Source: Clostridia bacterium
Lineage (GTDB): Bacteria; Bacillota; Clostridia; Christensenellales; CAAEEZ01
NCBI GenBank assembly: GCA_900755035.1
Contig: CAAEEZ010000016.1
Coordinates: 89,058 to 153,057, forward strand
Length of the DNA stretch: 64,000 nucleotides
Direction: 5' to 3'
Position 1 is the first letter of the stretch, and the number at the start of each line of letters is the position of its first letter. Below are positions 8,936 through 55,304 of the stretch, one piece after another. Made by a program: the position numbers and the translations under genes. The notes beneath the pieces were generated by a model. The model did not search any database and was not told where the DNA came from. It saw only the letters and a program-made list of their open reading frames with translations.

Positions 8936-11103
8936 TTTATTTCCTCCAAAACAACAAGTTGCGATTCAAACTCGTTTAACGTTTTCGACATATTTATACC
9001 CACTTCCATATAATAACTACCTTTGTAGGTTTTATTATCAAGACTATTTATATACTTCTTATTAGGGTTCAATCCTCGCAACTTTATAAACCTGCTTGCA
9101 CGCAATCTTTTAAGCAAATTAACCATTAAAAACAGGGCTTTTTCCTTATTTTTATCTACCATTATTATGCTAAATTCATTAGTTTCAAATGGCGACGACA
9201 ATCTAAACAAATCCCCTTTTAAGACTACGTCTCGATATTTTTTATAAATTTCGTTCGTAATTTTTATTTGCTCTATGTCTTTATCTGCAACTCTTCGAGG
9301 GTCTAATTCAAATCCGTACGAACCGAATAACGCTATTTCCGATTTGGTTTTATAAGAGGCAGTATCACATTCGTTTACGTGCGCTCCCATAACTGACGGC
9401 GGATATGCAAACGACGTTCCGTATTGAATAAACAATCTTTGAATAGGGTCGTTTTCATCGCTTGTCCATATTTCAGGAAAATAGAAAAGCGTTCCAAAGT
9501 CAAAACGTCCTCCACCACTAGCACAACCTTGAAAATGCACGTTTGCAAATCTCTTAGTTAGTCTATCGGCCAATTTATAATATCCAAGCGTATTTCTATG
9601 ATAAAATTCGTCTTGGTGCAAATAATCCAAATTATCGGCAAAATAGTCTTCCATCGTACGATTATGGTCCCATTTAATATAGTCTATTTCGTACCTAGAC
9701 AGAGTTGCCTCCAATACGTTATAAATATAGTCGACTACTTCGTCGTTTGCAAAATTGAGCATTACTTGATGCCTAGATAACCAAGGGTTACTTTTTACGT
9801 CAACGGCAGCGTATTCGGGGTGTTCTCTTAATAAATTAGAATCAAAATTAGCCATTTCAGGCTCTATCCAAATACCAAATTTCATTCCGTTTTTATGGCA
9901 CTCGTCAATAACCTTATTTAAGTTTATTTTTTCTTCGTTTACCTGCCAATCGCCAAGGGCCCTTTTATCGTCGCATCGATTACCAAACCACCCGTCGTCA
10001 AGCACAAATAACTCGGCACCCATTTTTTTGCCTTCCGTTATGAAATTCAATACCTTTTCGGTATTAAAATCCATATAGCAACCTTCCCACGAATTTAACA
10101 AAATAGACCGATACACGTCTTCGTTATTATCTATTACTATTCTTTCTCGTGTTAAATCGTGTAATTGATGACTAACTGATTCAAAACCATTTTTTCCGTA
10201 TACGATAAATCCTTCGGGAAATATAAACGATTCTTTACTCTTTACTTCGTATCTAAAATCGCCTATTCCTATATTTATTCTAGTTACCCCGACTTTGCCA
10301 ACGTTTACTTCGCATTTGAAAGCCCCCGAATACATAAACGATACTGCAAATACTTCACCGTTAGTTTCGGTTGCACTTGGATCGGCTAGCATTATAAAAG
10401 GATTGTGCTCGTGCGAACTGCGTCCCGTTTTAGAAGAAATAACCTTAGTTCCTTCCGTTATTCGTTCTCTCCTAAACTGCCTTTCAAATAGCCATTCCCC
10501 CGGGAAATGAATCAAATCGTAATTTGCACTAGCAAAATCTTGCGTTAGACTCATTGATTTCGTTAGCCATAAATTTTTATCCGTTCCATTAATAAATTTT
10601 GTATTACGTATTATTACGTTATAATTTTCAAAAATTGAAAGTGATAAAATTATAGTTACGTCTTTACTAAAATCTTTCGCCGTTATTTCTAGCGTCTCTG
10701 CCTCGCTTAAATCATCACGAATATACGGCATATCTACTAATTGTGGTTTACCTTTTAATATTTTGTGTGAAACGTAACGAAAATCTAATTTGTTATTTTC
10801 TAAACCGTCAATCTTTACGAAAGAAGGTCTTACGTCTGCGGCACGATATGATGGCAAAAGCATTTTAGATGCATTCAAATACAAATTTTCATATTTTTTC
10901 TCGGCTTTTTCTTCGTAATCGTAATAATTAGAAAACCAATCTTCTCCACCTATTACGCTAATTTGGTCCAAATCAATATCGTCTAAATACGAACCAAAAT
11001 ACGGGCAAGTTATCGCTTTGCTTTCGTGTATATGTACGTAATATGAAAATTCGCTATTGTATAAATGAAATAAATTCCTGTCTTTGAAAAATTTAATTGC
11101 CAT
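8932..11103 (-). CDS. Alpha-galactosidase, GH36
   Basis: 723 aa. Motifs FVLDDGWF, IDYIKWDHNR and CASGGGRFD are GH36 catalytic signatures. Confidence 0.9.
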   Translation of the reverse strand: MAIKFFKDRNLFHLYNSEFSYYVHIHESKAITCPYFGSYLDDIDLDQISVIGGEDWFSNYYDYEEKAEKKYENLYLNASKMLLPSYRAADVRPSFVKIDGLENNKLDFRYVSHKILKGKPQLVDMPYIRDDLSEAETLEITAKDFSKDVTIILSLSIFENYNVIIRNTKFINGTDKNLWLTKSMSLTQDFASANYDLIHFPGEWLFERQFRRERITEGTKVISSKTGRSSHEHNPFIMLADPSATETNGEVFAVSFMYSGAFKCEVNVGKVGVTRINIGIGDFRYEVKSKESFIFPEGFIVYGKNGFESVSHQLHDLTRERIVIDNNEDVYRSILLNSWEGCYMDFNTEKVLNFITEGKKMGAELFVLDDGWFGNRCDDKRALGDWQVNEEKINLNKVIDECHKNGMKFGIWIEPEMANFDSNLLREHPEYAAVDVKSNPWLSRHQVMLNFANDEVVDYIYNVLEATLSRYEIDYIKWDHNRTMEDYFADNLDYLHQDEFYHRNTLGYYKLADRLTKRFANVHFQGCASGGGRFDFGTLFYFPEIWTSDENDPIQRLFIQYGTSFAYPPSVMGAHVNECDTASYKTKSEIALFGSYGFELDPRRVADKDIEQIKITNEIYKKYRDVVLKGDLFRLSSPFETNEFSIIMVDKNKEKALFLMVNLLKRLRASRFIKLRGLNPNKKYINSLDNKTYKGSYYMEVGINMSKTLNEFESQLVVLEEIK

Positions 11104-11169: not shown

Positions 11170-12894
11170 CTATTTGATTACGATATTACTAATAGTACAG
11201 TCTAAATCACGACACAAAAAACTTATGGACGCTCTTCCAAAATAACCGTCGTTATTCCAGCCCCACGTTCCTTCGAACAATACGTTGTCTTGGCTATCTT
11301 TTACGGTTAGTTTGTTGTCTTGTCCCGTTTCGGTCATAAGACGAGTTACCGTGATTTTATAAGTAGCACCTTCTTCTAATCTAGCAGTTTCACCATTAAG
11401 TTTGTAATATCTATCCTCTTGCGCAGGTGCTCCTATTCCCGGATTTAAGTCGCCGTTAGAATTCCAGCCCGTCCAGCCTGCTTGATATTGTCCAACTAGA
11501 AGAGAACGTGCCTCTGCATATTTTTCATCATATCTATTCATAGTGATAGCAAGAGCAGGTAAAGCATCTCTACTACCTATACAATCAATCGTCAAGTCAA
11601 ACGACATACTTCCTTCCACGTTTGCTGCAAAAACAGCATTAGTACCAATATGTTTTGCTGCGTGGTCTTTTGCGTTAAGCGGTGAAGTTTGGTCTTTTGC
11701 ACCCGTGAACTTTATGGTATCGTTTTCAATAATTACTTTATCGCTTGACGCATAAAATTTTGATGCGTCGGCAGTTTCTAAAAATTCGGTTACTGCTTGC
11801 TCGCCATAACTTACTTGCATATTTGTATATTCTGCCGAGCAACTACCTAGATTAAGTACCGGGATAGTATCTACGTCGGTAAATTCTTCCAAACCGTCTT
11901 CGCTATAATATAATTCGTCGTTAATGTAAGCAGAAAAATTGTTTCCATTTCTCACCGTCGTAAGTTTTACACTTTCAAAATTTATATTACCTACTCCGTG
12001 TTGATTCCACGATTGCGAACGGTCGGTTATAGTTCCCCACTCTACGTTACCCGAGTTAATTACCATAGTTACCGTTTTACGAGCATTATAGTTTGGCCCT
12101 GGGGATAGTTGCAATCCGTAATATTTTGCTCCGTTATAATGCGAAATGCCTACTCTTGACCAAGTGTCGTTTGCATCAGGGTTAGTCACCTTTACGGTTG
12201 CACTAGCCACGTAATACTTAGACGCCTCTCCGTTGAACGCAGCAAAAGAATTACGATTGCCGTTACTCTTTAATACGGCGTTATCTTGATAAAGCCCCGT
12301 CATATCAAAGTCGTCTGCATTTACCTTCGTATCGATTACGGTATCTTTTACCGTTATAGTTATGCTTTTAGTCGTTTTGCCAACGGTTGCCGAAATAGTA
12401 GTAGTTCCAGCACTTATTGCCGTAACTAATCCGTCTTTATTTACAGAGGCAACGTTCTCGTTTTCCGACTTCCAAGTAAGTAAAGCGTCTAACGGCGTTT
12501 GTGTTGCAGTTAATTGAAGGGTTTTTGTAGGATAAATTGTTGCGTTATCCACTTTACCCAACTCTACTTCGCACGGTTTTACCGTTATGACTAACTTATC
12601 TTTTTCCTTATCGTTTACTTTTATGCTAATTGTAGTTTTGCCTTGGTTTAATCCCGTTACTAATCCGTCTTGACTTACGGTAGCAACGCTTTCGTCCGAC
12701 GAAAACCATACTTCTTTTTGCGTTGTAGTATTTTTAACGCCTAGTTGCAAGGTTAGTCCTTCGTAAACTTCCGTTATGCTTTTATCTATAATTTTCACTA
12801 CTTCTTCGTTTGTAGTTTGATTACAACCAGAAAAAACAAATGCAAATGAAGTAATTAGAAGTACCATTATCGTAATTAAAGATTTCTTTCTCAT
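11170..12894 (-). CDS. Surface lipoprotein: 2x Big_2 (Ig-like) domains plus two C-terminal beta-sandwich (ConA/LamG-like) regions
   Basis: Lipobox FVFSGC. Two Big_2-type repeats (...LTLQLGV...WFSSDESVATVSQDGLVTGLNQGKTTISI...; ...LQLTAT...WKSENENVASVNKDGLVTAISAGTTTISA...). Paralogous to ORF 12910-14736. Confidence 0.75.
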   Translation of the reverse strand: MRKKSLITIMVLLITSFAFVFSGCNQTTNEEVVKIIDKSITEVYEGLTLQLGVKNTTTQKEVWFSSDESVATVSQDGLVTGLNQGKTTISIKVNDKEKDKLVITVKPCEVELGKVDNATIYPTKTLQLTATQTPLDALLTWKSENENVASVNKDGLVTAISAGTTTISATVGKTTKSITITVKDTVIDTKVNADDFDMTGLYQDNAVLKSNGNRNSFAAFNGEASKYYVASATVKVTNPDANDTWSRVGISHYNGAKYYGLQLSPGPNYNARKTVTMVINSGNVEWGTITDRSQSWNQHGVGNINFESVKLTTVRNGNNFSAYINDELYYSEDGLEEFTDVDTIPVLNLGSCSAEYTNMQVSYGEQAVTEFLETADASKFYASSDKVIIENDTIKFTGAKDQTSPLNAKDHAAKHIGTNAVFAANVEGSMSFDLTIDCIGSRDALPALAITMNRYDEKYAEARSLLVGQYQAGWTGWNSNGDLNPGIGAPAQEDRYYKLNGETARLEEGATYKITVTRLMTETGQDNKLTVKDSQDNVLFEGTWGWNNDGYFGRASISFLCRDLDCTISNIVIK

Positions 12895-41017: not shown

Positions 41018-42376
41018 ATGATAAATATAAATAGTCTTTGGACGGAAACATTACAAGAATTATCCACCAAAATGCTAGCAGTCAGCTACGAAGTATGGAT
41101 AGAAAAATTAAAACCATTATTTATTTATAATTCGCAACTCGTTTTAGTTGCGCCAAATCCAAGCGCAAAAAAATTAGTCATTAAAGAATATCAAGACACA
41201 ATAAATAAGGCGCTAGAAAAGGTAAACAAAACTATAAAAGGCGCTATTATCATTATCGAAGACGAAAAAGATAACTACAATCAAGACGAAGAGGTTGCCG
41301 TAAGTCAAGTTGAAAATGAAAAAGAATCTAACGACGACGGCTTTACTCCGTTTACCAAAAAATATACGTTTGATAATTTCGTCGTTGGTAAATCAAACGA
41401 ATTTGCTGCGGCAGCAGGTATTGCAGTTAGCGAAAACCCGGGCGAACAATACAACCCACTATTTATTTACGGTGGCGTTGGGCTTGGTAAAACGCACCTT
41501 ATGCACGCAATAGGCAATAAAATTAGAAAAACTAAGCCTTCGCTAAAAGTGAGATATATCACGTGCGAAACTTTCGTAAACGAATTCGTTGATTCTATAA
41601 AACAAAAAGCAAACACCAACGCAATGCGTGATTTTAACGAAAAATATCGTAGCGTTGACGTACTTATGATAGACGATATTCAGTTTATTGCAGGTAAACC
41701 CGGTTTTCAAGAAGGTATTTTCCATACCTTTAACGACCTATACCAAAACAACAAACAAATTATACTTACGTCCGATAGACCTCCAAAAGAGATAAACCCT
41801 CTTGAAGAAAGGCTAAGAACTAGGTTTGAGTGGGGACTTATAGTCGATATACAACCACCTGACCTTGAAACGAGAATTGCTATTTTGTCTAAAAAGGCAG
41901 AGCAACAAAATAAAGTATATTCGCTAGAATTACTTACTTTTATTGCTCAAAAAGTAGATAGCAATATTCGTGAAATGGAAGGGCTACTTTCAAGGGTAAT
42001 ATTCTACTCTGACCTAATTAAAAAGGATGCAACGATAAGTATTGCCGAAGAGGCGCTTCGTGATTACGTAGATACTAAAAAAGAAACTATAACGGCGTAC
42101 GACATAATAAATACCACGTGCAATTACTTTGGAATTACAAGCGACGACATAAAGGGTAAAAAAAGAAATAAAAACTTTATTATTCCTCGCCAAATTGCAA
42201 TCTATTTAATTACCGACCTACTTAATTTACCACTCGTTTCAATAGGCGAACTATTTGGCGGAAGAGACCATACGACAGTTATTCACGCAAGGGATAAAAT
42301 AGCCGAACAAATAAAAGTAGACACTAAACTAAAACTACAAGTAAGCGATATAAAAGATATGATATACAAACGTTAG
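41018..42376 (+). CDS. dnaA: Chromosomal replication initiator DnaA
   Basis: 452 aa. Motifs NPLFIYGGVGLGKTHLMHAIGN and DVLMIDDIQF, plus the C-terminal DNA-binding domain ...GGRDHTTVIHARDKI. Confidence 0.97.
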   Translation: MININSLWTETLQELSTKMLAVSYEVWIEKLKPLFIYNSQLVLVAPNPSAKKLVIKEYQDTINKALEKVNKTIKGAIIIIEDEKDNYNQDEEVAVSQVENEKESNDDGFTPFTKKYTFDNFVVGKSNEFAAAAGIAVSENPGEQYNPLFIYGGVGLGKTHLMHAIGNKIRKTKPSLKVRYITCETFVNEFVDSIKQKANTNAMRDFNEKYRSVDVLMIDDIQFIAGKPGFQEGIFHTFNDLYQNNKQIILTSDRPPKEINPLEERLRTRFEWGLIVDIQPPDLETRIAILSKKAEQQNKVYSLELLTFIAQKVDSNIREMEGLLSRVIFYSDLIKKDATISIAEEALRDYVDTKKETITAYDIINTTCNYFGITSDDIKGKKRNKNFIIPRQIAIYLITDLLNLPLVSIGELFGGRDHTTVIHARDKIAEQIKVDTKLKLQVSDIKDMIYKR

Positions 42377-42560
42377 TGGATAAGTTTTTTGAAATATGGA
42401 CAACTTGTGAAAAACTAACAAAAGTTATCCACACCATAAAATACTACTACTTGTATATAAATTTGGACTGACGTCTATATTTAGTATAAAATAAAAGTTA
42501 TCCACTTTATCCACAGTATTATTATTAGAACAATTATCTAAACAATATATATAACACGAA
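42375..42560. other. oriC-type module in the dnaA-dnaN spacer: four DnaA boxes, a trinucleotide run and an AT-rich unwinding tract
   Basis: Perfect TTATCCACA at 42425-42433 and 42507-42515. TTATCCACT at 42498-42506, directly abutting the latter box. AGTGGATAA (the inverted orientation, one mismatch) at 42375-42383. A TAT-TAT-TAT-TAG run at 42517-42528 is followed by an AT-rich stretch extending to the dnaN SD. Confidence 0.7.
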
Positions 42561-44941: not shown

Positions 44942-45949
44942 TTACGCTTTAATTTCTATAAAAACAAAGTCTTTATTATTTTGTTTATATGCGTCTAATA
45001 AATCACTTGGAACGCTAATTTTAAGCTCCTTACTACAATTCTTAAACACGTTATCTAATTTAAGAACAGTGGTAGAATTAAGAGTAACGGATTTAAGTTT
45101 GGTGCAGTCGATAAAAGCGTTTCTATATAAATTAGTAACGGACGAAGGAATATTTATTGATTCTATACTGCTTGCAGCAAAAGCCCCTTCACCGATTTCT
45201 TTAAGCGAAGAATTATTTTCAAAGGTTACAACCTTTAATTTTCCGTTATAAGCAAACGCCTGCTTATTTATTTTAGTTACCGAGTGTGGTATAGTTATAC
45301 TTTCAATACTACCGCATAGCGTTAAAAAACGAGCAGGTATAACGTTTGTATTTGGTAAAATCACGCTTGTAAGATTTGAGCAAGCGGTAATTTTAACTTT
45401 TTCAATACTTAGTAGTTTAGATAAATCTATACTTTTGATATTATCGCACGTAATATATAAATTATCTACTATAACGTTGTCCATAAAAGACAAAGAATTA
45501 AGCCAAGAGTAACTAATTGAATTTATATTTACGTTTTTTACGTTATACGTTTTTCCGTTTACAGAAAGCGTGTTTGGAATAACGACGTCGTGATTTTGCG
45601 GGCAGTTTAATAGATTAGTAATAGTTAAGGTATCGTCGTCGTTAATAGTATAATCAAAAATACCTTTTCTAAATTTTGCGTATAAAGTAAGGTTTTTAGT
45701 AGGTTTTACGGGGAAAACTACGGGATTGCCACTGAAATCTTCGTTGTAGTACCAATTTTCAAAATAGTAATCTTTTTTTGAAGTAATAGGTTTTTTACTT
45801 AAAAAAGACGTGGTAACGCTTTCAACTGTCGTTCCACCGTTTACTTCAAAAGTAATAGTATATTTTATCTCTTCCTGATTGTTACAGCCTGCAAAACAAA
45901 AAGCGACGGTAATTAAAGTAAACAATAATAATATAAGTTTTTTCTTCAT
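44942..45949 (-). CDS. Surface lipoprotein with a Listeria-Bacteroides (Flg_new) repeat and BspA-type leucine-rich repeats
   Basis: Lipobox FCFAGCN. YTITFEVNGGTTV...YYFENWYYNEDFSGNPV...LTLYAKF is an Flg_new-like repeat. Repeating ~22-25 aa LRR_5 units follow (SIESITIPHSVTKINKQAFAYNGKLKVVTF..., SIESINIPSSVTNLYRNAFIDCTKLKSVTL). Confidence 0.75.
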   Translation of the reverse strand: MKKKLILLLFTLITVAFCFAGCNNQEEIKYTITFEVNGGTTVESVTTSFLSKKPITSKKDYYFENWYYNEDFSGNPVVFPVKPTKNLTLYAKFRKGIFDYTINDDDTLTITNLLNCPQNHDVVIPNTLSVNGKTYNVKNVNINSISYSWLNSLSFMDNVIVDNLYITCDNIKSIDLSKLLSIEKVKITACSNLTSVILPNTNVIPARFLTLCGSIESITIPHSVTKINKQAFAYNGKLKVVTFENNSSLKEIGEGAFAASSIESINIPSSVTNLYRNAFIDCTKLKSVTLNSTTVLKLDNVFKNCSKELKISVPSDLLDAYKQNNKDFVFIEIKA

Positions 45950-49357: not shown

Positions 49358-49792
49358 ATGGAAGAGTTAAAAAGAATTAAATCATTTACGATAGACCATA
49401 CCGTTCACAAGGAAGGTTTTTATTTGTCAGGAGTTGCAAACGGTATTTTCACCTACGATCTTAGGTTCAAAAAGCCAAACGGTGGCAGTTACGTTCCTAT
49501 TGATGCAATGCACACTATCGAACATTTGTTCGCAACCGTTGTAAGAAACAGCAACGTTCAAGACAAGGTAGTATATTTTGGACCTATGGGTTGCAGAACG
49601 GGTTTTTACCTATTGCTACTAGGTATAGATAAGGATGAAGCAAGGCAACTGACTATAAATTGTATGGAAAAATGTCTAGAACTTGACTATATTCCCGGTT
49701 GCTCCGAAATGGAGTGCGGTAACTACAAGGAGCACGACCTACAAAAAGCCAAGGAAGAAATACAAAAATATCTTAGTGTGCTAAAAGCATAG
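49358..49792 (+). CDS. luxS: S-ribosylhomocysteine lyase LuxS
   Basis: 144 aa. Metal motif HTIEHLFAT and GPMGCRTGFY...C. Adjacent to mtnN, forming an activated-methyl-cycle pair. Confidence 0.92.
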   Translation: MEELKRIKSFTIDHTVHKEGFYLSGVANGIFTYDLRFKKPNGGSYVPIDAMHTIEHLFATVVRNSNVQDKVVYFGPMGCRTGFYLLLLGIDKDEARQLTINCMEKCLELDYIPGCSEMECGNYKEHDLQKAKEEIQKYLSVLKA

Positions 49793-49941
49793 TACTAAAA
49801 GTTAGGTTATTTGCAAAGTTAAAAAAAGTTTTATTGAAAAAAACTTGTAAATTGCAAATATAATTTTACAATAATAATATAAGAAACAATTTTAGAAACG
49901 CAAGACGCTAATTAAAACTAAATATAAGTAAAAATACAATT

Positions 49942-49967
49942 AAAGACTACTTTCGTGGTCTTTTTTT
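49942..49967 (+). terminator. Intrinsic terminator downstream of luxS
   Basis: AAAGACTAC-TTTC-GTGGTCTTT followed by TTTT (one G-U pair). Confidence 0.6.
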
Positions 49968-49992
49968 GTTTTTAATTTACACGAAGCGTAAT

Positions 49993-50012
49993 ATATTTGC
50001 TAATTATAATTA
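49993..50012. repeat. 20-nt direct repeat, copy 1 (contains the 12-bp palindrome TAATTATAATTA)
   Basis: ATATTTGCTAATTATAATTA is identical to 52276-52295, and both copies are preceded by GTAAT. Confidence 0.8.
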
Positions 50013-50528
50013 GAAAAAAATAAATAAAATTTTCAAGGAGCAGTTAAATAAACGAATAAAACAAGGGGATAGTGTCTTGGTTTAACGTGAATATAGGTAT
50101 GGTTTAGCGTAAAGTAATGAATAAATACACGAAAAGGTGTATATTAATTCTTTGCATTGAGAATATTATTAAACGTTTTCCAAACAACGTATCTAATATA
50201 GACGTTTGGCTGTGAAAAATGCTTAAAATATCCTAAAATCGTATAAAAGTGCATCAAAATTAGCAAAATTGCAGCAATTTTTAATATTTTATTGTATTGT
50301 GAAACAAATATATAAAAATATGCAAAAAAAGTATATAAATACAAAAATTTATTAAAAAACACGAATAATATTAGTATTTTTATTAAAAAATATGCATTTT
50401 TATTAAATATATGAATATTTGTTAATTTGTTAAACATTTTCCATAATTTTTTCAATGAGCAAAACAGCAAAAAATTAATAAAAATTTTCAAGGAGCAAAA
50501 TCGGTTATTTATTTTGCATACCAAAATA

Positions 50529-50609
50529 ATGTATAAAACATACGATAATATACATAAATACGGTAAAATATACATATATTATGTATAAAATAAGAAAATA
50601 TACATATAT
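50529..50609. repeat. Iteron-like cluster of the heptamer TATACAT/ATGTATA
   Basis: AAAATATACATATAT at 50565-50579 and 50595-50609 (30-bp spacing). AATATACATA also at 50547-50556. The inverted form ATGTATAAAA lies at 50529-50538 and 50581-50590. Confidence 0.6.
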
Positions 50610-50620
50610 AATGAATAGAT

Positions 50621-50636
50621 TGTTTAACGTGAAACG
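50621..50636. promoter_or_regulatory. parS-like site (14/16 match to TGTTNCACGTGAAACA)
   Basis: TGTTTAACGTGAAACG. Confidence 0.5.
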
Positions 50637-50653
50637 ATCGAGCGATGGGGCGT

Positions 50654-50669
50654 TGTTCCATGTGAAACA
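50654..50669. promoter_or_regulatory. parS site (15/16)
   Basis: TGTTCCATGTGAAACA. Confidence 0.7.
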
Positions 50670-50722
50670 TATGCTTTTTGATTATGAAAACAATTAATAG
50701 TAAGTTAGATAAAAGCTTATAT

Positions 50723-50738
50723 TGTTCCACGTGAAACA
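50723..50738. promoter_or_regulatory. parS site (perfect consensus)
   Basis: TGTTCCACGTGAAACA is a perfect 16-bp palindrome, identical to the Firmicutes Spo0J/ParB consensus. Confidence 0.85.
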
Positions 50739-50835
50739 ATTATATAAAATATATAAAAATTAAGATTAAATTAAATAAAATTATTAGTGAAAGATTGAAT
50801 AACCTATAATATAAATTTGAAAAAGAATAAAAATT

Positions 50836-50876
50836 TGTGGATAAGTTAATAATATTGTGGATAAAAATGTGGATAA
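50836..50876. promoter_or_regulatory. Cluster of three perfect, co-oriented DnaA boxes
   Basis: TGTGGATAA (complement of TTATCCACA) at 50836-50844, 50856-50864 and 50868-50876. Confidence 0.8.
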
Positions 50877-52275
50877 TAAGAAAATTGTAACATTGGGAAA
50901 ATAAAATTAAAGCTAAAAATAAGAATAAATACAAAAAATAATACACACGAATAATAAGACCAAAGGAATAAAATAATAAAATATTGCGTGTTTGGTAGAA
51001 CGTATGTGAAAAAGTACAAAAAGTATTATAATTGTAAATAAATCAAGGAATTTTGTAATGCAAATATATTTTGATACGGTTTGGTAATAAGTTTGAAATT
51101 ATAAATACGTTTACGTCTTGTTTCTTCCAGAAAGAGAAGCAAAATACTTAATCGTTTGTAATTAGATGTTTAATTTTATAAATATATGTAGTTAATTGTA
51201 AAATAAAGCATATTAGTGAAGGAAAATACGTATAAAGTGTGTAAGTAATATCAAAATGCAGATGTTCAAATAACATAGAAACGTTTATAAAAAAGTAAAT
51301 ATGTTCTGTTGGTCAATGCAAAGATAAGAACGTACAGCGGTCGAAGAATAGTTATAAGAAAATTAAAAGGGTGTATATTTATGCTATATGGTGCTTTATT
51401 GTATATATAAATGGCGTAAATATGCAAAAGGAGGTATATATATTCAATACGGAAGGTGCTTCGGGTAGTAGTTACGTTGCGACCAAAAGACCTAATAGAT
51501 ATCGAAGAACCAAAGTTAATTATATGTTGATATATAAAATGATTTGTTCTGGTGGAATAGTGTTTAGATTAGTATAGGATAAGCTTATTAAAAGGCTGGG
51601 TAATAAACTTTACAAATTTTTGCAGTTTGTTTGTATTTTATTAGATTTTTAGTATATTCGCTATAATAACGTCAAAAAGGTATAAATATATTTATTAGGC
51701 ATCATAAAATATTTCAATTTATATATTTAACTATATATAATAACCAAAAAATAACAAAAATGAATAATTTTATCCTGTTCGAGTATAAAAAATCACGTAG
51801 TTGAAGATTTTTAAGTTACAAATTTTAGAATTTTTAATTTTAAGATTATATTTTTATTAAATAATTTACTTTTACATTGGAAAAAAATTAGTAAATTGTA
51901 TCATTAAGGAATAATTGGTATTTTTTATAATAATATATAGTTTTTTTAATAATTTGATGCCTAAATTATAAATTTTATTTAGTAATTTAATAAAATAATT
52001 AGTAAAATTTTATCCAAAAATATGGATATCTAAATTAAAATGAATTATTTAGAATTTATTTATAAATTATTAAAGATTTTATATTTAATATCTAAAAAAT
52101 TGATTATAAAAATAAATATAATTGAAAGATTTAATTGGTTAGATTTTCTTTATATATTAGTGATTTTTATTTTTTTGATATCCAAAGTTATTATATAAAG
52201 AATTTTTTAATCGCTAGTTTTATTCCTGTTTTTATTGCAACGTATAGCATCTTAATTATATATATGCAAATTGTA

Positions 52276-52295
52276 ATATTTGCTAATTATAATTA
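52276..52295. repeat. 20-nt direct repeat, copy 2
   Basis: ATATTTGCTAATTATAATTA is identical to 49993-50012, 2283 bp away. Confidence 0.8.
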
Positions 52296-52444
52296 TCAAA
52301 AATGAATATATATAAATATTTCCTTAAATATTTTAATTAAAAATGTATAAATATGCAATATTATTTATATTATAAAAAATAATAAATTTGTTATTTAATG
52401 AAATTTTTTTGTATATTTGGGGCTTATCTAAAGATAAAAAGTAG

Positions 52445-52472
52445 TTGACAATAACGATAATTGGGGTATAAT
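52445..52472 (+). promoter_or_regulatory. Full-consensus sigma-70 promoter driving the zeta-like gene through a ~235-nt AT-rich leader
   Basis: TTGACA (52445-52450), 16 nt spacer, TATAAT (52467-52472). Confidence 0.6.
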
Positions 52473-52718
52473 AAAGGTAGGTAGTAGTTCGATTGAACGT
52501 TTTACCGTTTGTATATTTTTAGATTTATTTATAAAGTTTTTGTTAAAAATTCATATTGCAAAGAAGAAGTTGATTTTAGTTTTTGTATTTATTTTAAGTT
52601 TTGATTAGGTTTATTGATTTTATTTTAATTTAATTTTTTATTTATTTCCAAATAATCGTTTGTAATTTGTGTAGCATATTTCAAAATTTTATAATTTTTA
52701 TTTTTAAGGAGTTACATT

Positions 52719-53894
52719 ATGGCATTGTTTGACAAATCTTATTTAGACAAAGAAAGGGACGTTGTGGTATTTGAAGTAGATAAGGAAAAACTTGAAGACG
52801 TAAGCGAAGAGAGTTACAAAGACGGCATTGTAGGGGCTCTGATTGGCGACCTTATAGATAAGTTCCCAAATAAAGAGGGCGAACTTTTAGACGTTGTTAG
52901 CAATATGAATAAACGTAAATACGACGACCCTAAGGACGCAGAAAATACCTTAATCCTAAAAGGTATCAATCATTTTGCAGAACAATTATTTATGGCGCTG
53001 AAAGATAATAAAGTAACAAGCGCATATACGATGGACGAATTTGAAACTACGAAGCAAGCACTATTAAATAAGGCAATAGACGATGATAACGTGCACGAAG
53101 TGGAAAATCCAAAGTTGGTGTTTGTTGGTGGACAAATGGGGGTTGAAAAGGAATATGCGATAAAAAAGATATTTGACACCCTTAACGGAAACGCAATCTT
53201 GGTGGATAAAAACGAATATATTAAATATCACCCGAATTATGAATATTTTGATGATAATGCAGACTTTTGGGATATTGTTGACGAGGATTGGGCTTGCGAA
53301 TTGGAGATTGCCATAAACGACGTGCTGTCGAAAAAGAAATATAACGTAGTTATTGTAGATGCATTAAGTAATTTTTGCAAAAATCAAAGAATTATAGACC
53401 AATACGGAACGGGTTTTGAGATATTGGTATTCGTAGATGCAATAAAACCAGATATCTCAAAGATAAATTTAATATCAAAATACGCTGAAAACAAGCAAAA
53501 AGGAAGGCCTGCTAGAAATTACTCGCTAGATATGCACGATTTCGAAGTGGCGTCGTTACCGTACTCGATAGGGCTACTTGCTAAGTCCAAAGAAGTGAGC
53601 AATGTGTTTATTATCAATAGCCAATTAGAAACAATATATGAAAAAGCGGTGGGTGGCAGTAATGCCGAAAAATTCTTAAAAAAAGTGTTTCACGAGCCTT
53701 TAACCGAGCAGGAAATAGAAAAATTAAAAACGACGTGTATGAACAGTATACTACCTTACCTTCCGGTTTGCAACAAAACCTATCCGCACTTAAACTTTGT
53801 GAGCGAGTTGTATAGAAAGTTTATAGAGATAGAAAAGAGAGGGAAAAAATTGAGCAAAAAGAATAGACGTAACGCTTATCGTGTTAAGAAATAA
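52719..53894 (+). CDS. Zeta-toxin-fold (P-loop kinase-like) protein with degenerate catalytic motifs and a ~130-aa N-terminal extension
   Basis: 391 aa, with AAGGAG 7 nt before the ATG. Residues ~130-310 align by eye with zeta/PezT: GGQMGVEKE vs GGQPGSGKT; GNAILVDKNEYIKYHPNY vs GNVIVIDNDTFKQQHPNF; KYNVVIVDALS vs GYNLVIEGTGR; GFEILVFVDAIKP vs GYETKMYVMAVP. Confidence 0.65.
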   Translation: MALFDKSYLDKERDVVVFEVDKEKLEDVSEESYKDGIVGALIGDLIDKFPNKEGELLDVVSNMNKRKYDDPKDAENTLILKGINHFAEQLFMALKDNKVTSAYTMDEFETTKQALLNKAIDDDNVHEVENPKLVFVGGQMGVEKEYAIKKIFDTLNGNAILVDKNEYIKYHPNYEYFDDNADFWDIVDEDWACELEIAINDVLSKKKYNVVIVDALSNFCKNQRIIDQYGTGFEILVFVDAIKPDISKINLISKYAENKQKGRPARNYSLDMHDFEVASLPYSIGLLAKSKEVSNVFIINSQLETIYEKAVGGSNAEKFLKKVFHEPLTEQEIEKLKTTCMNSILPYLPVCNKTYPHLNFVSELYRKFIEIEKRGKKLSKKNRRNAYRVKK

Positions 53895-53965
53895 AAATTT
53901 AGTAAAAGCAGATAAAAATGTAACGCAACTATATCAAGAAATAAAAGGAAGAGAGGTAAAAGGGT

Positions 53966-54361
53966 ATGATTATAATAGAAGAACATTACGCACAAGGGGA
54001 CGGACCAACAGTACAAGAGTTAAGAGCAATGGAAAGAGCAGAGAGAATGAAAACAGAACCCGAGAACGTAGTGATTTTGGGCAAGTGGGGAACGCAAGCA
54101 CTAGAAATGATGGAAGATAGCAACAACGAACTGTATACGAAACTAAAACAAGAGATGAAGTTAGTGCCGTTCCTATTAGACCTGAATGAAACATGCTTGC
54201 AGCAATACAGGAAGATGAAAGAGAAAATGTGGCCAAAAGCGACGGGCGACTTTTTGACGGATTGGCAGAACAGAGAGGCAATGGTGAGAACGATAGACGA
54301 GATACTACTGAACGATATAATAATACCACAAGTGATGCAAGGCAAAGAATTGGATTATTAA
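53966..54361 (+). CDS. TnpV-like small protein (mobile-element-associated family)
   Basis: 131 aa, with GAGAGG/AAAGGG before the ATG. The pattern ILGKWGTQALEMMEDSNNELYTKLKQEMKLVPFLLDLNETCLQQY... resembles the LGKYGxxALxYLKExxPxxYxxLxxxGxLxxxLxEvD core of clostridial TnpV proteins as I recall them. Confidence 0.5.
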   Translation: MIIIEEHYAQGDGPTVQELRAMERAERMKTEPENVVILGKWGTQALEMMEDSNNELYTKLKQEMKLVPFLLDLNETCLQQYRKMKEKMWPKATGDFLTDWQNREAMVRTIDEILLNDIIIPQVMQGKELDY

Positions 54362-54746
54362 GCGTTTTTGAAACGATACAAAATTTTATAAAATAGGCAT
54401 TTATGTGGAAGTTAAATATAAATAAGCGTAAATAATAAGCGAATAAAATTACGTATATTATTATATAATTAGACATTGCCGATAAAAATTGAAATATTAG
54501 TAAATAGTAGGGTTTTAGTGCGATTTATTTTTAATTAACACTTGCCGATATGAAGAATATGCAATTAAAACGCCCGTTTATTTAACTGTGAAACGATACG
54601 AAAATTGCAAATATCGTTTATGAATTAAATGAAGAATAGAACGCTAAAATTGTGAAACGGACAGAAGAAAGGTCTAAGAAAAATAGCAAAAGAAGGCGAA
54701 AATTAGCAAAAAAATAGACGCTACTGGCAATTACGCTTTATTTTGT

Positions 54747-54775
54747 TTGACAGAGACCTTTCTTTCATATATAAT
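54747..54775 (+). promoter_or_regulatory. Full-consensus sigma-70 promoter of the rpmH-rnpA operon
   Basis: TTGACA (54747-54752), 17 nt spacer, TATAAT (54770-54775). Confidence 0.65.
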
Positions 54776-54819
54776 TTAATGGTTATATTAAAATACAATA
54801 CAAGCGGAGGGCTTAATAA

Positions 54820-54954
54820 ATGAAAAGAACTTATCAACCAAAGAAAAGACAAAGAAACAAGGTACACGGATTTAGAAAGAGAATGAGCAGTAAAGCTGGC
54901 AGAAACGTAATTGCTAGAAGAAGAAAAAGAGGTAGAAAAGCACTTAGTGCCTAA
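54820..54954 (+). CDS. rpmH: 50S ribosomal protein L34
   Basis: Not in the ORF track because it is under 60 aa. Translation [50 protein letters not shown] lies before the ATG. Confidence 0.95.
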
Positions 54955-54965
54955 CCGATGGATAT

Positions 54966-55304
54966 ATGCAAAAACAATATAGATTAAAAAAGAACGCTTC
55001 GTTTAACTACATATATCGTAACGGCAAAAGCGTATCGAATAAATATATGGTTCTTGTGTATGTAAAATCCTATCAATCGGTAAAGGTAGGCTTTTCGGTA
55101 AGTAAAAAAGTAGGGAATAGCGTGGTAAGAAACCACGTGAAAAGATTGATGAGAGAGAGCGTAAGAGGGTATATTCAAAATATGGACAAGCATACTCATT
55201 ACGTTTTCGTTGCAAGACCGCAGGTAGTAAACCTGACGTTTAGTCAATACCAAGAAAAAATAAAAGAACTGCTTACCAAGGCCTCGCTATACGTGGAACA
55301 ATGA
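54966..55304 (+). CDS. rnpA: Ribonuclease P protein component
   Basis: 112 aa, basic. Motifs [16 protein letters not shown]...[22 protein letters not shown]. Confidence 0.93.

What the first reader, a model, noticed from the sequence alone, without database searches (positions are those of the whole stretch)
52445..53894. Zeta-toxin-fold protein with eroded catalytic residues, no epsilon partner, and a consensus promoter next to the origin module
The central ~180 aa align block by block with zeta/PezT UDP-GlcNAc kinases (sequence recalled from memory). The Walker A is GGQMGVEKE instead of GGQPGSGKT: Lys is kept while the Gly and Thr are replaced by Glu. The IDND catalytic segment is VDKN, so the Asp corresponding to the catalytic base becomes Asn. 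The EGTGR segment is VDALS. This predicts a non-toxic pseudokinase or an altered specificity. It also carries an unassigned ~130-aa N-terminal domain and a basic tail. It is expressed from a perfect TTGACA-16-TATAAT promoter through a ~235-nt AT-rich leader. No antitoxin-sized ORF precedes it. It could be a domesticated toxin, a self-neutralised fused antitoxin-toxin, or a nucleotide-binding factor acting at the origin-proximal AT tract.
Basis: partly seen in the sequence, partly recalled or inferred. Interest (0 to 1): 0.65.

Follow-up and report, generated by a model that had tools for sequence, protein, structure and literature searches.

The report
Dead zeta toxin fused to antitoxin
This gene is a toxin-antitoxin pair from a conjugative element that a one-base deletion joined into a single protein; the toxin half has lost its catalytic residues but selection still keeps it, probably as a harmless shield against related toxins carried by incoming mobile DNA.

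Summary
ORF 52719-53894 (391 aa) matches Pfam Zeta_toxin (E=1.6e-15). Its model superposes on zeta and PezT (TM 0.81-0.86). The Walker A (GGQMGVEKE), the catalytic Asp (now N165) and the UNAG-contact loop (VDALS) are degenerate. A perfect TTGACA-16-TATAAT promoter lies ~240 nt upstream.

The "missing" partner is fused in. Residues 1-96 are homologous to a 97-aa ORF that lies just upstream of intact-motif zeta genes in conjugative elements of uncultured gut Clostridia, overlapping them by 8 nt (ATGAATAA). Against those operons the window lacks one G (GAT[G]AATAA), which merges the two frames.

It is not a pseudogene. dN/dS against a sister species is 0.25 (0.20 in the dead kinase part), and neutral drift would have broken the ORF.

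The gene is a mosaic. The antitoxin module and the downstream TnpV gene are recent relatives of the conjugative element (dS ~0.2), while the dead zeta part is saturated. Related genomes carry, at the same rpmH-upstream site, arrays of 2-4 orphan antitoxin modules with toxin-gene stubs.

Best reading: an EzeT-like fusion of independent origin, catalytically dead, probably kept for anti-addiction immunity (function inferred). This is a new variant of a known kind, of moderate interest.

The parts
52445..52472 (+). Sigma-70-type promoter: TTGACA (52445-52450), 16-nt spacer, TATAAT (52467-52472).
   Evidence: It scores 12/12. Both hexamers are identical in sister species L001 while the spacer differs. 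Expression was not tested.
52480..52507 (+). Conserved hairpin or palindrome just after the -10 element (GGTAgtaGTTCgattGAACgtttTACC). It could be a 5' stem-loop of the transcript or an operator remnant.
   Evidence: It is the only stable element in the MFE and centroid folds of the leader. It is conserved in L001 with A-to-G changes that keep G-U pairs. Its function is inferred.
52479..52718 (+). AT-rich 5' leader of about 240 nt, ending in the RBS AAGGAG (52706-52711).
   Evidence: Read from the sequence. There is no Rfam match and the fold z-score is -1.34, which is not significant. Homology to the conjugative-element operon starts only at 52706.
52719..53006 (+). Antitoxin-derived N-module (aa 1-96), acidic, predicted as a beta-hairpin plus three helices.
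   Evidence: It is 34-77% identical to stand-alone 96-98-aa proteins. Those proteins lie immediately upstream of live zeta genes and overlap them in L019, L020, L022 and L023-25. It is 86% nt-identical to L023 9988-10294 with dS 0.22. Secondary structure is (low pLDDT).
53001..53015 (+). Fusion junction AAA GAT AAT AAA GTA (K95 D96 | N97 K98 V99). The intact operons read AAAGATGAATAA at this point.
   Evidence: L022/L023 read AAAGATGAATAAGCG and L020 reads AATGAATAAAGTA, against window AAAGAT-AATAAAGTA. Loss of one G removes both the stop codon and the ATG and joins the two frames.
53007..53865 (+). Zeta-toxin-fold domain (aa 97 to about 382), catalytically degenerate.
   Evidence: Supported by Pfam, PDB sequence hits and Foldseek. 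It scores 57.5 bits against 147-168 bits for live relatives. It is 32-35% identical to the live zetas of the conjugative elements. dN/dS is 0.20 against the sister species.
53127..53153 (+). Degenerate Walker A, GGQMGVEKE (aa 137-145).
   Evidence: From. The sister species has GGQMGVDKD. Strain variant P0011 has GGQMGVENE.
53202..53213 (+). VDKN segment. N165 replaces the catalytic base (Asp67 in zeta, Asp66 in PezT).
   Evidence: Alignment. The role of Asp67/Asp66 is from PMC3062530.
53355..53369 (+). VDALS segment, replacing the E116-G-T118-G-R120 UNAG-phosphate loop of zeta.
   Evidence: Alignment. The roles of T118 and R120 are from PMC3062530.
53866..53894 (+). End of the basic C-terminal tail and the stop codon. 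This stretch is homologous to the interior of the conjugative element's giant gene, so it marks the right edge of an internal deletion of about 3.2 kb.
   Evidence: Window 53866-54346 is 91% nt-identical to L023 13473-13950. dN/dS of the C-terminal region (aa 341-end) is 0.56.
53966..54361 (+). TnpV-family gene (131 aa), probably co-transcribed with the fused gene. It derives from the same conjugative element.
   Evidence: Pfam TnpV gives 29 bits against a cut-off of 27. dN/dS is 0.13 against the sister species. It is 91% aa-identical to L023. It follows the N-modules in every related locus. No terminator is predicted between the two genes.

Best explanation
The gene is a chromosomal, domesticated remnant of a three-gene module (HTH regulator, 97-aa antitoxin, zeta-type toxin) carried by conjugative elements of gut Clostridia.

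Shown here:
1. In those elements the antitoxin ORF ends inside the start of the toxin ORF (ATGAATAA).
2. In this lineage one base of that overlap is missing, so the antitoxin and toxin are translated as one 391-aa protein.
3. The toxin half keeps the zeta fold but has lost the P-loop glycine and threonine, the catalytic Asp and the UDP-GlcNAc-contacting residues. It should neither bind ATP normally nor phosphorylate UDP-GlcNAc.
4. The ORF, its strong promoter and the downstream TnpV gene are maintained by purifying selection.
5. The antitoxin module and TnpV have been exchanged recently with circulating conjugative elements, while the dead toxin part is old.

Inferred:
1. The protein is made constitutively. 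The element's HTH regulator is absent.
2. It acts through its antitoxin module. It binds and neutralises the live zeta toxins brought in by related conjugative elements, so the host is not killed or arrested when it loses such an element (anti-addiction immunity).
3. The dead kinase half serves as a non-toxic scaffold that folds and stabilises an otherwise labile antitoxin.
For: Origin and architecture:
- Stand-alone homologues of aa 1-96 exist, and zeta homologues start at the position of aa 97.
- Six contigs from at least three element types carry VirB4-like ATPase, HTH_3, the 97-98-aa ORF, an intact-motif zeta gene overlapping it by 8-11 nt, and a primase-polymerase.
- The junction differs from the intact operons by a single base.
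- The sister species has the same fused, dead gene at the same site.

Catalytic death:
- The Pfam score is 57.5 bits against 147-168 bits for live relatives.
- A strain variant has the Walker Lys changed to Asn.
- In PezT, D66T abolishes kinase activity and toxicity (PMC3062530).

Maintenance:
- dN/dS is 0.25 overall, 0.27 in the N-module and 0.20 in the zeta part.
- In simulation, a neutral 293-codon ORF survives 0.19 substitutions per site with P < 1e-3.
- Within the species there are 27 synonymous-only and 17 amino-acid-changing polymorphic codons.
- The promoter hexamers are conserved across a diverged spacer.

Antitoxin-centred function:
- At the same rpmH-upstream site, related species keep 2-4 tandem orphan N-modules and have lost the zeta part.
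- These cassettes are followed by 5' stubs of toxin genes (MNKVEKLVSSSTEY against P0181 MNKVEDFVNFSTEY).
- They are 90-95% nt-identical to an element's antitoxin.
- The window's N-module is closer to the element antitoxin P0169 (76%; the sister's is 88%) than the two fused genes' N-modules are to each other (71%).
- dS against the element is 0.22 for the N-module and 0.24 for TnpV, but saturated for the zeta part.

Precedent:
- EzeT is a fused cis-antitoxin plus zeta kinase (PMC4826407).
- Anti-addiction by chromosomal or orphan antitoxins is reviewed in PMC7354431.
Against: - No binding, toxicity or expression data exist. That the 97-aa ORF is an antitoxin rests on position, size, overlap and helical prediction only.
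- It shows no sequence similarity to Epsilon, and its model is low-confidence with no fold match.
- If the N-module binds its own fused dead partner in cis, it may not be free to neutralise a toxin in trans.
- The dead zeta part is itself under constraint (dN/dS 0.20), which a pure scaffold role explains only loosely.
- Related species manage without the zeta part, so it is dispensable there.
- The dS values for the N-module and TnpV rest on only 55-75 synonymous sites.
- The direction of exchange (element to chromosome or the reverse) is unknown.
- The live elements were not shown to occur in the same host genome.
Confidence: 0.55

Rival explanations
1. It is a neofunctionalised pseudokinase. 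After losing catalysis, the zeta fold acquired a new, selected role unrelated to toxin neutralisation, such as binding a ligand or partner protein, or regulating the operon or TnpV. The N-module is then simply an attached domain.
For: The dead zeta part is under its own purifying selection (dN/dS 0.20). It is very divergent from all live relatives (32-35%), as would follow a functional shift. The fold is well predicted (pLDDT about 90).
Against: All known substrate-contact residues are changed, and no new conserved motif was identified. Related species have deleted this part while keeping the N-modules and TnpV. Nothing in the neighbourhood suggests a partner pathway.
Confidence: 0.2
2. It is a live, cis-inhibited toxin of the EzeT type. 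The kinase would still work with a non-canonical active site and be held off by its own N-terminal antitoxin domain until a trigger (proteolysis or phage) releases it.
For: The architecture is the same as EzeT. K144 and R266 are retained in this strain. The promoter is strong.
Against: The G-to-E and T-to-E changes sit in the P-loop, and the catalytic Asp is Asn. The UNAG loop is lost. The equivalent single change in PezT (D66T) already abolishes activity. K144 is Asn in a strain variant and R266 is Lys in the sister species.
Confidence: 0.07
3. It is a functionless remnant: a decaying mobile-element scar that has simply not yet been broken.
For: Homologues elsewhere are canonical and paired. 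Related lineages deleted the zeta part. The C-terminal region (aa 341-end) is weakly constrained (dN/dS 0.56) and its last codons are an accident of a deletion.
Against: The ORF is intact in two species separated by dS of about 0.76, with dN/dS 0.25. Neutral simulation gives P < 1e-3 for ORF survival. There is a synonymous excess within the species. The promoter is conserved.
Confidence: 0.08
4. It is a nucleotide-binding factor that acts on the neighbouring origin, parS or AT-rich region.
For: The gene lies 1.8-2 kb from three DnaA boxes and two parS sites. It has a basic C-terminal tail.
Against: The P-loop is degenerate and no DNA-binding domain was detected. The tail is partly a deletion artefact and weakly constrained. 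The same gene block sits inside conjugative elements with no origin nearby. Species sharing the same origin region lack the zeta part.
Confidence: 0.03

Closest known systems
EzeT of Escherichia coli (Rocker & Meinhart 2015; reviewed in PMC4826407)
   Same: A single polypeptide with an N-terminal antitoxin domain and a C-terminal zeta-type kinase domain. It is thought to have arisen by fusion of a bicistronic operon. It is chromosomal and has no separate antitoxin gene.
   Different: EzeT is an active UDP-GlcNAc kinase held in check in cis. Here the P-loop, catalytic Asp and substrate loop are lost. The origin is independent: a Clostridia conjugative-element operon, with the fusing 1-nt deletion still readable. 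Homology between the two N-terminal domains was not tested.
epsilon/zeta (pSM19035) and PezAT (S. pneumoniae) type II TA systems
   Same: The toxin fold matches (TM 0.81-0.86). The ancestral operon has a small upstream, translationally coupled partner and a separate or fused HTH regulator. HTH_3 plus the 97-aa ORF resembles a split PezA, and the three-gene layout resembles omega-epsilon-zeta. The setting is plasmid or conjugative.
   Different: Sequence identity is about 20%. The partner shows no detectable similarity to Epsilon. In the window the two genes are fused and the kinase is dead.
Orphan antitoxins and chromosomal anti-addiction modules (for example Erwinia chrysanthemi CcdA against F-plasmid CcdB; PMC7354431)
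   Same: Chromosomal antitoxin copies match toxins carried by invading elements, and the toxin is lost or disabled.
   Different: Here the antitoxin stays covalently attached to a dead toxin. In relatives the orphan antitoxins form tandem arrays of 2-4 diverged paralogues at one locus. I did not find such arrays described in the papers I read.
Phd-RelE fusion yb_293189 of Ralstonia eutropha (mentioned in PMC4826407)
   Same: A fused antitoxin-toxin in which activity is thought to be lost. Whether it is a dead end or functional remains open.
   Different: It belongs to a different toxin superfamily. Its loss is attributed to truncations, whereas here the loss is by point substitutions and there is demonstrable purifying selection.
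Orphan immunity-gene arrays (acquired interbacterial defence clusters of gut Bacteroidales; recalled from memory, not checked here)
   Same: Arrays of diverse orphan protective genes against toxins circulating in the gut community, sitting in a recombination-prone island.
   Different: Those neutralise secreted inter-bacterial effectors. Here the presumed targets are intracellular addiction toxins of conjugative elements. This is an analogy only.

Membership tests
Zeta_toxin / PezT P-loop kinase family (Pfam PF06414) | Sequence-profile match above the curated threshold | tested here: met
   57.5 bits against a cut-off of 22.3, E=1.6e-15, aa 121-307. This is much weaker than live relatives at 147-168 bits.
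Zeta_toxin / PezT P-loop kinase family (Pfam PF06414) | Zeta/PezT phosphotransferase fold | tested here: met
   The AF2 kinase part has pLDDT about 90. Foldseek gives 1gvn_B, 3q8x and 2p5t at E=1e-13 to 1e-15 with target-normalised TM 0.81-0.86.
Zeta_toxin / PezT P-loop kinase family (Pfam PF06414) | Walker A GxxxxGK[ST] | tested here: not met
   GGQMGVEKE: the Gly before Lys is Glu and the Thr is Glu. A strain variant also loses the Lys.
Zeta_toxin / PezT P-loop kinase family (Pfam PF06414) | Catalytic base Asp (zeta D67, PezT D66) | tested here: not met
   N165 aligns to D67. The role of this residue is from PMC3062530.
Zeta_toxin / PezT P-loop kinase family (Pfam PF06414) | UDP-GlcNAc-contact residues (T118, R120, T128, E100) | tested here: not met
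   In the HMMER alignment T118 becomes A215, R120 becomes L216/S217, T128 becomes R and E100 becomes I.
Zeta_toxin / PezT P-loop kinase family (Pfam PF06414) | UDP-GlcNAc kinase activity and toxicity | not testable with these tools
   This needs a kinase assay and expression of aa 97-391.
NCBIfam PezT equivalog (NF041574) | Score above the equivalog cut-off | tested here: not met
   41.5 bits against a cut-off of 470.
Type II epsilon/zeta-like TA operon | Small antitoxin gene immediately upstream of, and co-transcribed with, the toxin gene | tested here: not met
   The window has no separate ORF because the two are fused in frame. The feature is met in the relatives L019, L020, L022 and L023-25, with an 8-11-nt overlap.
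Epsilon antitoxin family (three-helix bundle) | Sequence or fold homology of the partner to Epsilon or the PezA C-terminal domain | tested here: inconclusive
   hhalign of the N-module profile against Epsilon (sequence verified as 1gvn_A) gives probability 0.3. A PDB profile search finds nothing relevant. AF2 predicts a beta-hairpin plus three helices but with pLDDT 65. Foldseek gives no hit with E below 1.
Epsilon antitoxin family (three-helix bundle) | Neutralises the toxin by blocking its ATP site | not testable with these tools
   This needs co-expression rescue or a structure of the complex.
EzeT-type fused TA | N-terminal antitoxin domain and C-terminal zeta domain in one polypeptide | tested here: met
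   aa 1-96 are homologous to the stand-alone upstream ORFs, and aa 97 onward are homologous to zeta from its residue 2.
EzeT-type fused TA | Catalytically competent kinase domain that is toxic when the antitoxin domain is removed | tested here: not met
   Judged at the motif level only. The experiment was not possible.
TnpV (Pfam PF14198), for the downstream gene | Profile match above the gathering score | tested here: met
   29.0 bits against a cut-off of 27, aa 34-119. This is marginal. The family's function is unknown.

The most novel reading that the evidence does not exclude
The site upstream of rpmH in this Clostridia clade would be an expandable 'anti-addiction island'. Antitoxin modules captured from circulating conjugative elements are kept, duplicated into arrays and repeatedly refreshed by recombination with incoming elements. 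The matching toxins are deleted or, as here, kept only as a catalytically dead scaffold welded to the antitoxin. The fused protein would be a stable, constitutively made decoy that lets the host shed those elements without being poisoned. Different -1 deletions at the same 8-nt overlap in two species (G lost here, apparently T of the stop codon lost in the sister) would suggest that fusion itself is favoured.
Probability: 0.3. Interest if true: 0.65.

Novelty: new variant of a known kind. Interest (0 to 1): 0.45.

Why it matters
It gives a second, independent and unusually readable example of how a two-gene toxin-antitoxin operon becomes one protein: a single base lost in the stop/start overlap. 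It also shows that a catalytically dead toxin can stay under selection for a long time. That is relevant to how TA 'pseudo-toxins' are annotated and interpreted.

Together with the orphan-antitoxin arrays in sister genomes, it provides a concrete and testable case for the long-debated anti-addiction role of chromosomal TA remnants. The setting is a prevalent but uncultured group of human-gut Clostridia and the conjugative elements that circulate among them. It also defines a previously unannotated ~97-aa putative antitoxin family for a divergent branch of zeta toxins.

Tried and rejected
- Rfam (E<=1) on 49500-55000 found nothing, so the leader matches no known riboswitch or sRNA.
- The leader RNA fold has z=-1.34, not significant. 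Only the 5' hairpin is stable.
- PADLOC found nothing for the fused protein, TnpV, the N-module or the 113-aa gene.
- PHROGs gave only an uncharacterised zeta-like family.
- Pfam found nothing for the N-module, apart from sub-threshold DUF7399 for one paralogue.
- The N-module matched neither the PDB by profile nor Epsilon by hhalign.
- The N-module structure alone has pLDDT 65, and its Foldseek search was empty.
- The N-module is absent from PLSDB plasmids, INPHARED phages, IMG/VR and JGI metagenome contigs. The GTDB genome scan gave a single locus.
- The closest plasmid-borne zeta toxins in PLSDB are at most 33% identical.
- tblastn found no extra N-modules, 113-aa genes or the HTH regulator in the window.
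- The afdb50 fold library was unavailable, so a full-length structural comparison with EzeT-like proteins was not done.
- I considered rapid post-inactivation divergence as the sole reason the zeta part is only ~35% identical to its presumed parent. I rejected it because flanking synonymous divergence is only ~0.2 while the zeta part is saturated. A mosaic history fits better.
- A literature search for TnpV together with zeta toxin found nothing.
Full report
**1. What is there.**
ORF 52719..53894 (+) encodes 391 aa behind an AAGGAG RBS.
- It matches Pfam Zeta_toxin at aa 121-307 (E=1.6e-15, 57.5 bits, cut-off 22.3).
- By sequence it matches the solved zeta and PezT toxins (E=1.4e-8 and 1.7e-6).
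- An AlphaFold model built on 36 sequences has pLDDT about 90 through the kinase part.
- Foldseek ranks zeta (1gvn, 3q8x) and PezT (2p5t) first, with target-normalised TM 0.81-0.86.

The fold assignment is therefore solid.

- Walker A reads GGQMGVEKE (aa 137-145).
- N165 sits where the catalytic base Asp67 of zeta (Asp66 of PezT) should be.
- VDALS (aa 213-217) replaces the E116-G-T118-G-R120 loop.
- According to Mutschler et al. 2011, Asp67 hydrogen-bonds the 3'-OH of UDP-GlcNAc. The PezT D66T variant has no kinase activity and no toxicity. T118 and R120 contact the UDP-GlcNAc phosphates (PMC3062530).
- In an alignment with 20 homologues, every one keeps GQPGxGK[S/T/G], the Asp, [E/D][G/S]T and the Arg. 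Only this protein and its two close relatives do not.
- Live relatives score 147-168 bits against the same Pfam model.

**2. Promoter and setting.**
TTGACA-16-TATAAT at 52445-52472 is a 12/12 match.
- The only other 12/12 site in the 5.2 kb scanned is the rpmH promoter at 54747.
- Promoter-like sites in general are no more frequent than in shuffles.
- In a sister species both hexamers are unchanged while the 16-nt spacer has diverged. A short hairpin or palindrome just after the -10 is also kept.
- The ~240-nt leader has no Rfam match and no significant fold.

The gene lies in a 5-kb gap between luxS and rpmH.
- That gap also holds three perfect DnaA boxes (50836-50876) and two parS sites (50654-50669 and 50723-50738).
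- The cumulative GC-skew minimum spans about 41-48 kb, next to dnaA-dnaN.

The location 'next to the origin module' is therefore correct.

**3. The N-terminus is the missing partner.**
A full HMMER scan of 1.84 billion representatives gave two kinds of hit.
- Zeta homologues (P0019, 318 aa; P0020, 355 aa) align from their residue 2-5 to query residue ~97 onward.
- Separate 96-97-aa proteins (P0022, P0033, P0156) align to query residues 1-96 and stop exactly there.

A profile of the small proteins recovered 16 of them.

Looking up the contigs showed the ancestral arrangement.
- In L019, L020/L021, L022 and L023-L025, a 97-98-aa homologue sits immediately upstream of a zeta gene with intact motifs (GQPGAGKS, DIDEY, IIDGTLKN, PARSVP). 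It overlaps the zeta gene by 8-11 nt.
- The pair is preceded by a 72-aa HTH_3 regulator and a VirB4-like ATPase.
- It is followed by a primase-polymerase and a 2,239-aa LPD25/Eco57I/SNF2 protein.
- A T4SS pilin, ParA and SSB genes lie further upstream, so this is a conjugative element.

This is the classic layout of an epsilon/zeta or PezAT addiction module. The small ORF is therefore most likely the antitoxin. That assignment is inferred from position, size and overlap, not shown.

Whether the small ORF is an Epsilon homologue is not established.
- hhalign against the verified Epsilon sequence finds nothing.
- A PDB profile search finds nothing relevant.
- AlphaFold predicts a beta-hairpin plus three helices, reminiscent of Epsilon's three-helix bundle (PMC5923241). 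Confidence is low, however, and Foldseek returns no match.

**4. How the fusion happened.**
In the elements the antitoxin ends ...AAA GAT GAA TAA, and the toxin starts at the ATG inside that string (ATG AAT AAG/AAA).
- The window reads AAA GAT AAT AAA GTA. One G is missing.
- That loss destroys both the stop codon and the start codon and reads antitoxin ...K-D straight into toxin N2-K3-V4.
- The sister species (67% identical protein, same locus) is also fused and carries the same dead motifs: GGQMGVDKD, VDRNDY, VVVVDSLNN.
- Its junction (AAA GAA AAG) looks more like loss of the T of TAA. I could not decide between one ancestral deletion followed by substitutions and two independent deletions.

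**5. It is not a decaying pseudogene.**
- Against the sister species dN/dS is 0.25: 0.27 in the N-module, 0.20 in the zeta part and 0.56 in the C-terminal region (aa 341-end). dS is about 0.76.
- Housekeeping neighbours give 0.007-0.08, TnpV gives 0.13, and a surface LRR protein gives 0.23.
- Simulated neutral evolution of the 293 zeta codons leaves an open frame in fewer than 1 in 1,000 runs, even at 0.19 substitutions per site.
- Among eight alleles of the species, 27 polymorphic codons are synonymous-only and 17 change the amino acid. All eight alleles are intact.
- One strain variant has replaced the last canonical P-loop residue (K144N). This argues that nucleotide binding is not what is being preserved.

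**6. Mosaic history.**
- Window 52706-53011 (RBS plus N-module) is 86% nt-identical to the element L023.
- Window 53866-54346 (end of the gene, spacer and TnpV) is 91% identical to L023 13473-13950.
- Nothing in between aligns at the DNA level.
- Synonymous divergence from L023 is 0.22 for the N-module and 0.24 for TnpV, but saturated (pS 0.86) for the zeta part.
- At the protein level the dead zeta part is 32-35% identical to all three live element zetas, which are 41-53% identical to each other. It scores best against the P0019 type.
- The N-modules of the window and of the sister species are each closer to the element antitoxin P0169 (76% and 88%) than to each other (71%).

The simplest reading is that the flanks have been overwritten recently, and separately in each species, by recombination with circulating elements. 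The resident dead toxin segment was retained. The synonymous-site counts for the flanks are small (55-75), and the direction of transfer is not known.

The chromosomal block corresponds to the element with about 3.2 kb removed: the toxin's 3' end, the primase-polymerase and the first 468 nt of the giant gene. The last codons of the basic tail therefore come from the giant gene read in another frame. This fits their weak constraint.

**7. What relatives do at the same site.**
- In another species group (L008-L012, L018) the site upstream of rpmH carries 2-4 tandem stand-alone N-modules of 41-77% identity to the window's. It also carries a 109-aa N-module without any zeta part, then TnpV, then 1-4 tandem copies of an unrelated 113-aa gene.
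- Window 53006-53964 is simply absent there.
- A strain 97% identical to the window (L013) has one extra module upstream of the fused gene.
- Short ORFs follow some cassettes: MNKVEKLVSSSTEY... in L013 and MNKAEDLAF... in L012. These are 5' stubs of toxin genes (P0181 begins MNKVEDFVNFSTEY).
- Those cassettes are 90-95% nt-identical to the antitoxin of element L020.
- More distant arrays, again followed by a TnpV-like ORF, sit at other loci (L014-L017).

The recurring pattern is that antitoxin modules are kept and multiplied, while toxins are deleted or disabled.

**8. Mechanism.**
Shown: the fusion architecture, its derivation from a conjugative-element operon, the degenerate catalytic and substrate residues, purifying selection, the conserved promoter, and the mosaic exchange with elements.

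Inferred: the protein is made constitutively, since no HTH regulator is present in the window. It acts through the antitoxin module to neutralise incoming zeta toxins of related elements. This is anti-addiction as described for chromosomal CcdA and proposed for orphan antitoxins (PMC7354431). The dead kinase half would act as a harmless scaffold.

I put about 0.9 on the architectural and evolutionary account and about 0.4-0.45 on the anti-addiction function. The combined statement gets 0.55. The main weakness is that cis-binding to its own dead partner could compete with trans-neutralisation. Nothing was tested biochemically.

**9. Comparison with the known.**
- The closest system is EzeT of E. 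coli, a zeta-type UDP-GlcNAc kinase with a cis-acting N-terminal antitoxin domain. It is thought to derive from an operon fusion (PMC4826407). This gene shares that architecture but fails the 'competent kinase' feature and has a separate origin.
- It belongs to the Zeta_toxin family by sequence and fold, but fails every catalytic-motif criterion.
- It should not be filed as a PezT equivalog (41.5 bits against a cut-off of 470).
- The 2023 PezAT survey notes orphan PezT/zeta toxins without a cognate antitoxin (PMC10532202). In the passages my term search returned I saw no description of a dead fused form or of antitoxin arrays.
- The N-module family has no Pfam model and no hits in PLSDB, INPHARED, IMG/VR or JGI contigs. 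So far it seems confined to uncultured gut Clostridia MAGs and their elements.

**10. Verdict.**
This is a new variant of a known kind: an EzeT-like fusion, catalytically dead, maintained by selection, and embedded in a recombining island of orphan antitoxins. Interest is moderate at 0.45. The evolutionary story is clean and testable, but each ingredient has precedent: fused zeta TA systems, orphan antitoxins and anti-addiction.

Noticed in passing
window 50654-50876: The 2.9-kb ORF-free, ~21% GC gap between luxS and the zeta gene holds two parS sites and three perfect DnaA boxes. The parS sites are TGTTCCATGTGAAACA at 50654-50669 and a perfect TGTTCCACGTGAAACA at 50723-50738. The DnaA boxes (TTATCCACA, minus strand) are at 50836, 50856 and 50868. 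A second DnaA-box cluster lies in the dnaA-dnaN spacer (42375-42515). The origin looks bipartite, with its two halves about 8 kb apart.
   Followed up: partly
window 35081-60511: The gene order around the origin is unusual. gyrA, gyrB and recF diverge from dnaA-dnaN. The rpmH-rnpA-yidD-yidC-jag-mnmE-mnmG operon is co-oriented with dnaA and lies 12 kb downstream, rather than being divergent and adjacent. parB-parA-rsmG, mtnN and luxS lie in between.
   Followed up: no
L023 13570-13950; L020 8407-8712; L019 ~11640-12030; window 53881-54120 and 54193-54396: In the conjugative elements the TnpV ORF lies entirely inside the 2,239-2,374-aa LPD25/SNF2 giant gene, in its +1 frame. Both frames are open and conserved between elements only 39% identical in TnpV. 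This looks like a dual-coding (overprinted) region. In the window only the TnpV frame is intact, and the giant-gene frame survives as two fragments.
   Followed up: partly
L012 7098-9198; L018 2089-3424; L008 7101-8962: Related genomes carry 1-4 tandem copies of a 113-aa gene (MKMLIQLDEEKVLSDEKYALEDMW...) between TnpV and rpmH. The copies are 64-100% identical to each other. The gene has no Pfam, PHROG or PADLOC match and is absent from the window. It is a second amplifying small-gene array in the same island.
   Followed up: partly
window 49993-50019 and 52276-52302: A 27-nt, partly palindromic repeat (ATATTTGCTAATTATAATTA...) occurs twice, 93% identical and 2,283 nt apart, bracketing most of the AT-rich parS/DnaA-box region. 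Its meaning is unknown.
   Followed up: no
window 53001-53015 against L001 10279-10293: The fusion junction differs between the two species. The window reads GAT AAT AAA (loss of G). The sister reads AAA GAA AAG, which looks like loss of the T of the TAA stop. These may be independent -1 deletions in the same 8-nt overlap, or one deletion followed by four substitutions.
   Followed up: partly
L013 5988-6610: A strain 97% identical to the window carries an extra patchwork upstream of the fused gene. In order, it holds a P0181-type antitoxin cassette (P0178), 41 nt of that toxin's 5' end, the 3' end of another antitoxin with a second toxin start, and a 38-nt copy of the leader. This is evidence of repeated recombination at the cassettes' conserved ends.
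   Followed up: partly
window 54356-54666: Three copies of TGAAACG[AG]-type motifs (gtttttGAAACGATAC, ctgTGAAACGATAC, attGTGAAACGGAC), resembling parS half-sites, lie in the 460-nt spacer between TnpV and the rpmH promoter.
   Followed up: no
window 54747-54775: A second perfect consensus promoter (TTGACA-17-TATAAT) lies 45 nt upstream of rpmH. It is 92.5% conserved, together with its flanks, in the more distant species L012.
   Followed up: no
L020 4700-4745; L023 ~9930-9960: The live antitoxin-zeta operons on the conjugative elements also start from a perfect TTGACA-17-TATAAT, followed by a short GGGGTGG...CCCA hairpin. They have a separate Xre-type HTH gene just upstream. The layout resembles PezA split into two genes, or omega-epsilon-zeta.
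   Followed up: partly
window 44942-45949 (minus strand): A BspA-type LRR / Listeria-Bacteroides-repeat surface protein sits between dnaN and parB. It evolves fast (76% aa identity to the sister species, dN/dS 0.23) among otherwise near-identical neighbours (ParA and ParB about 100%).
   Followed up: no
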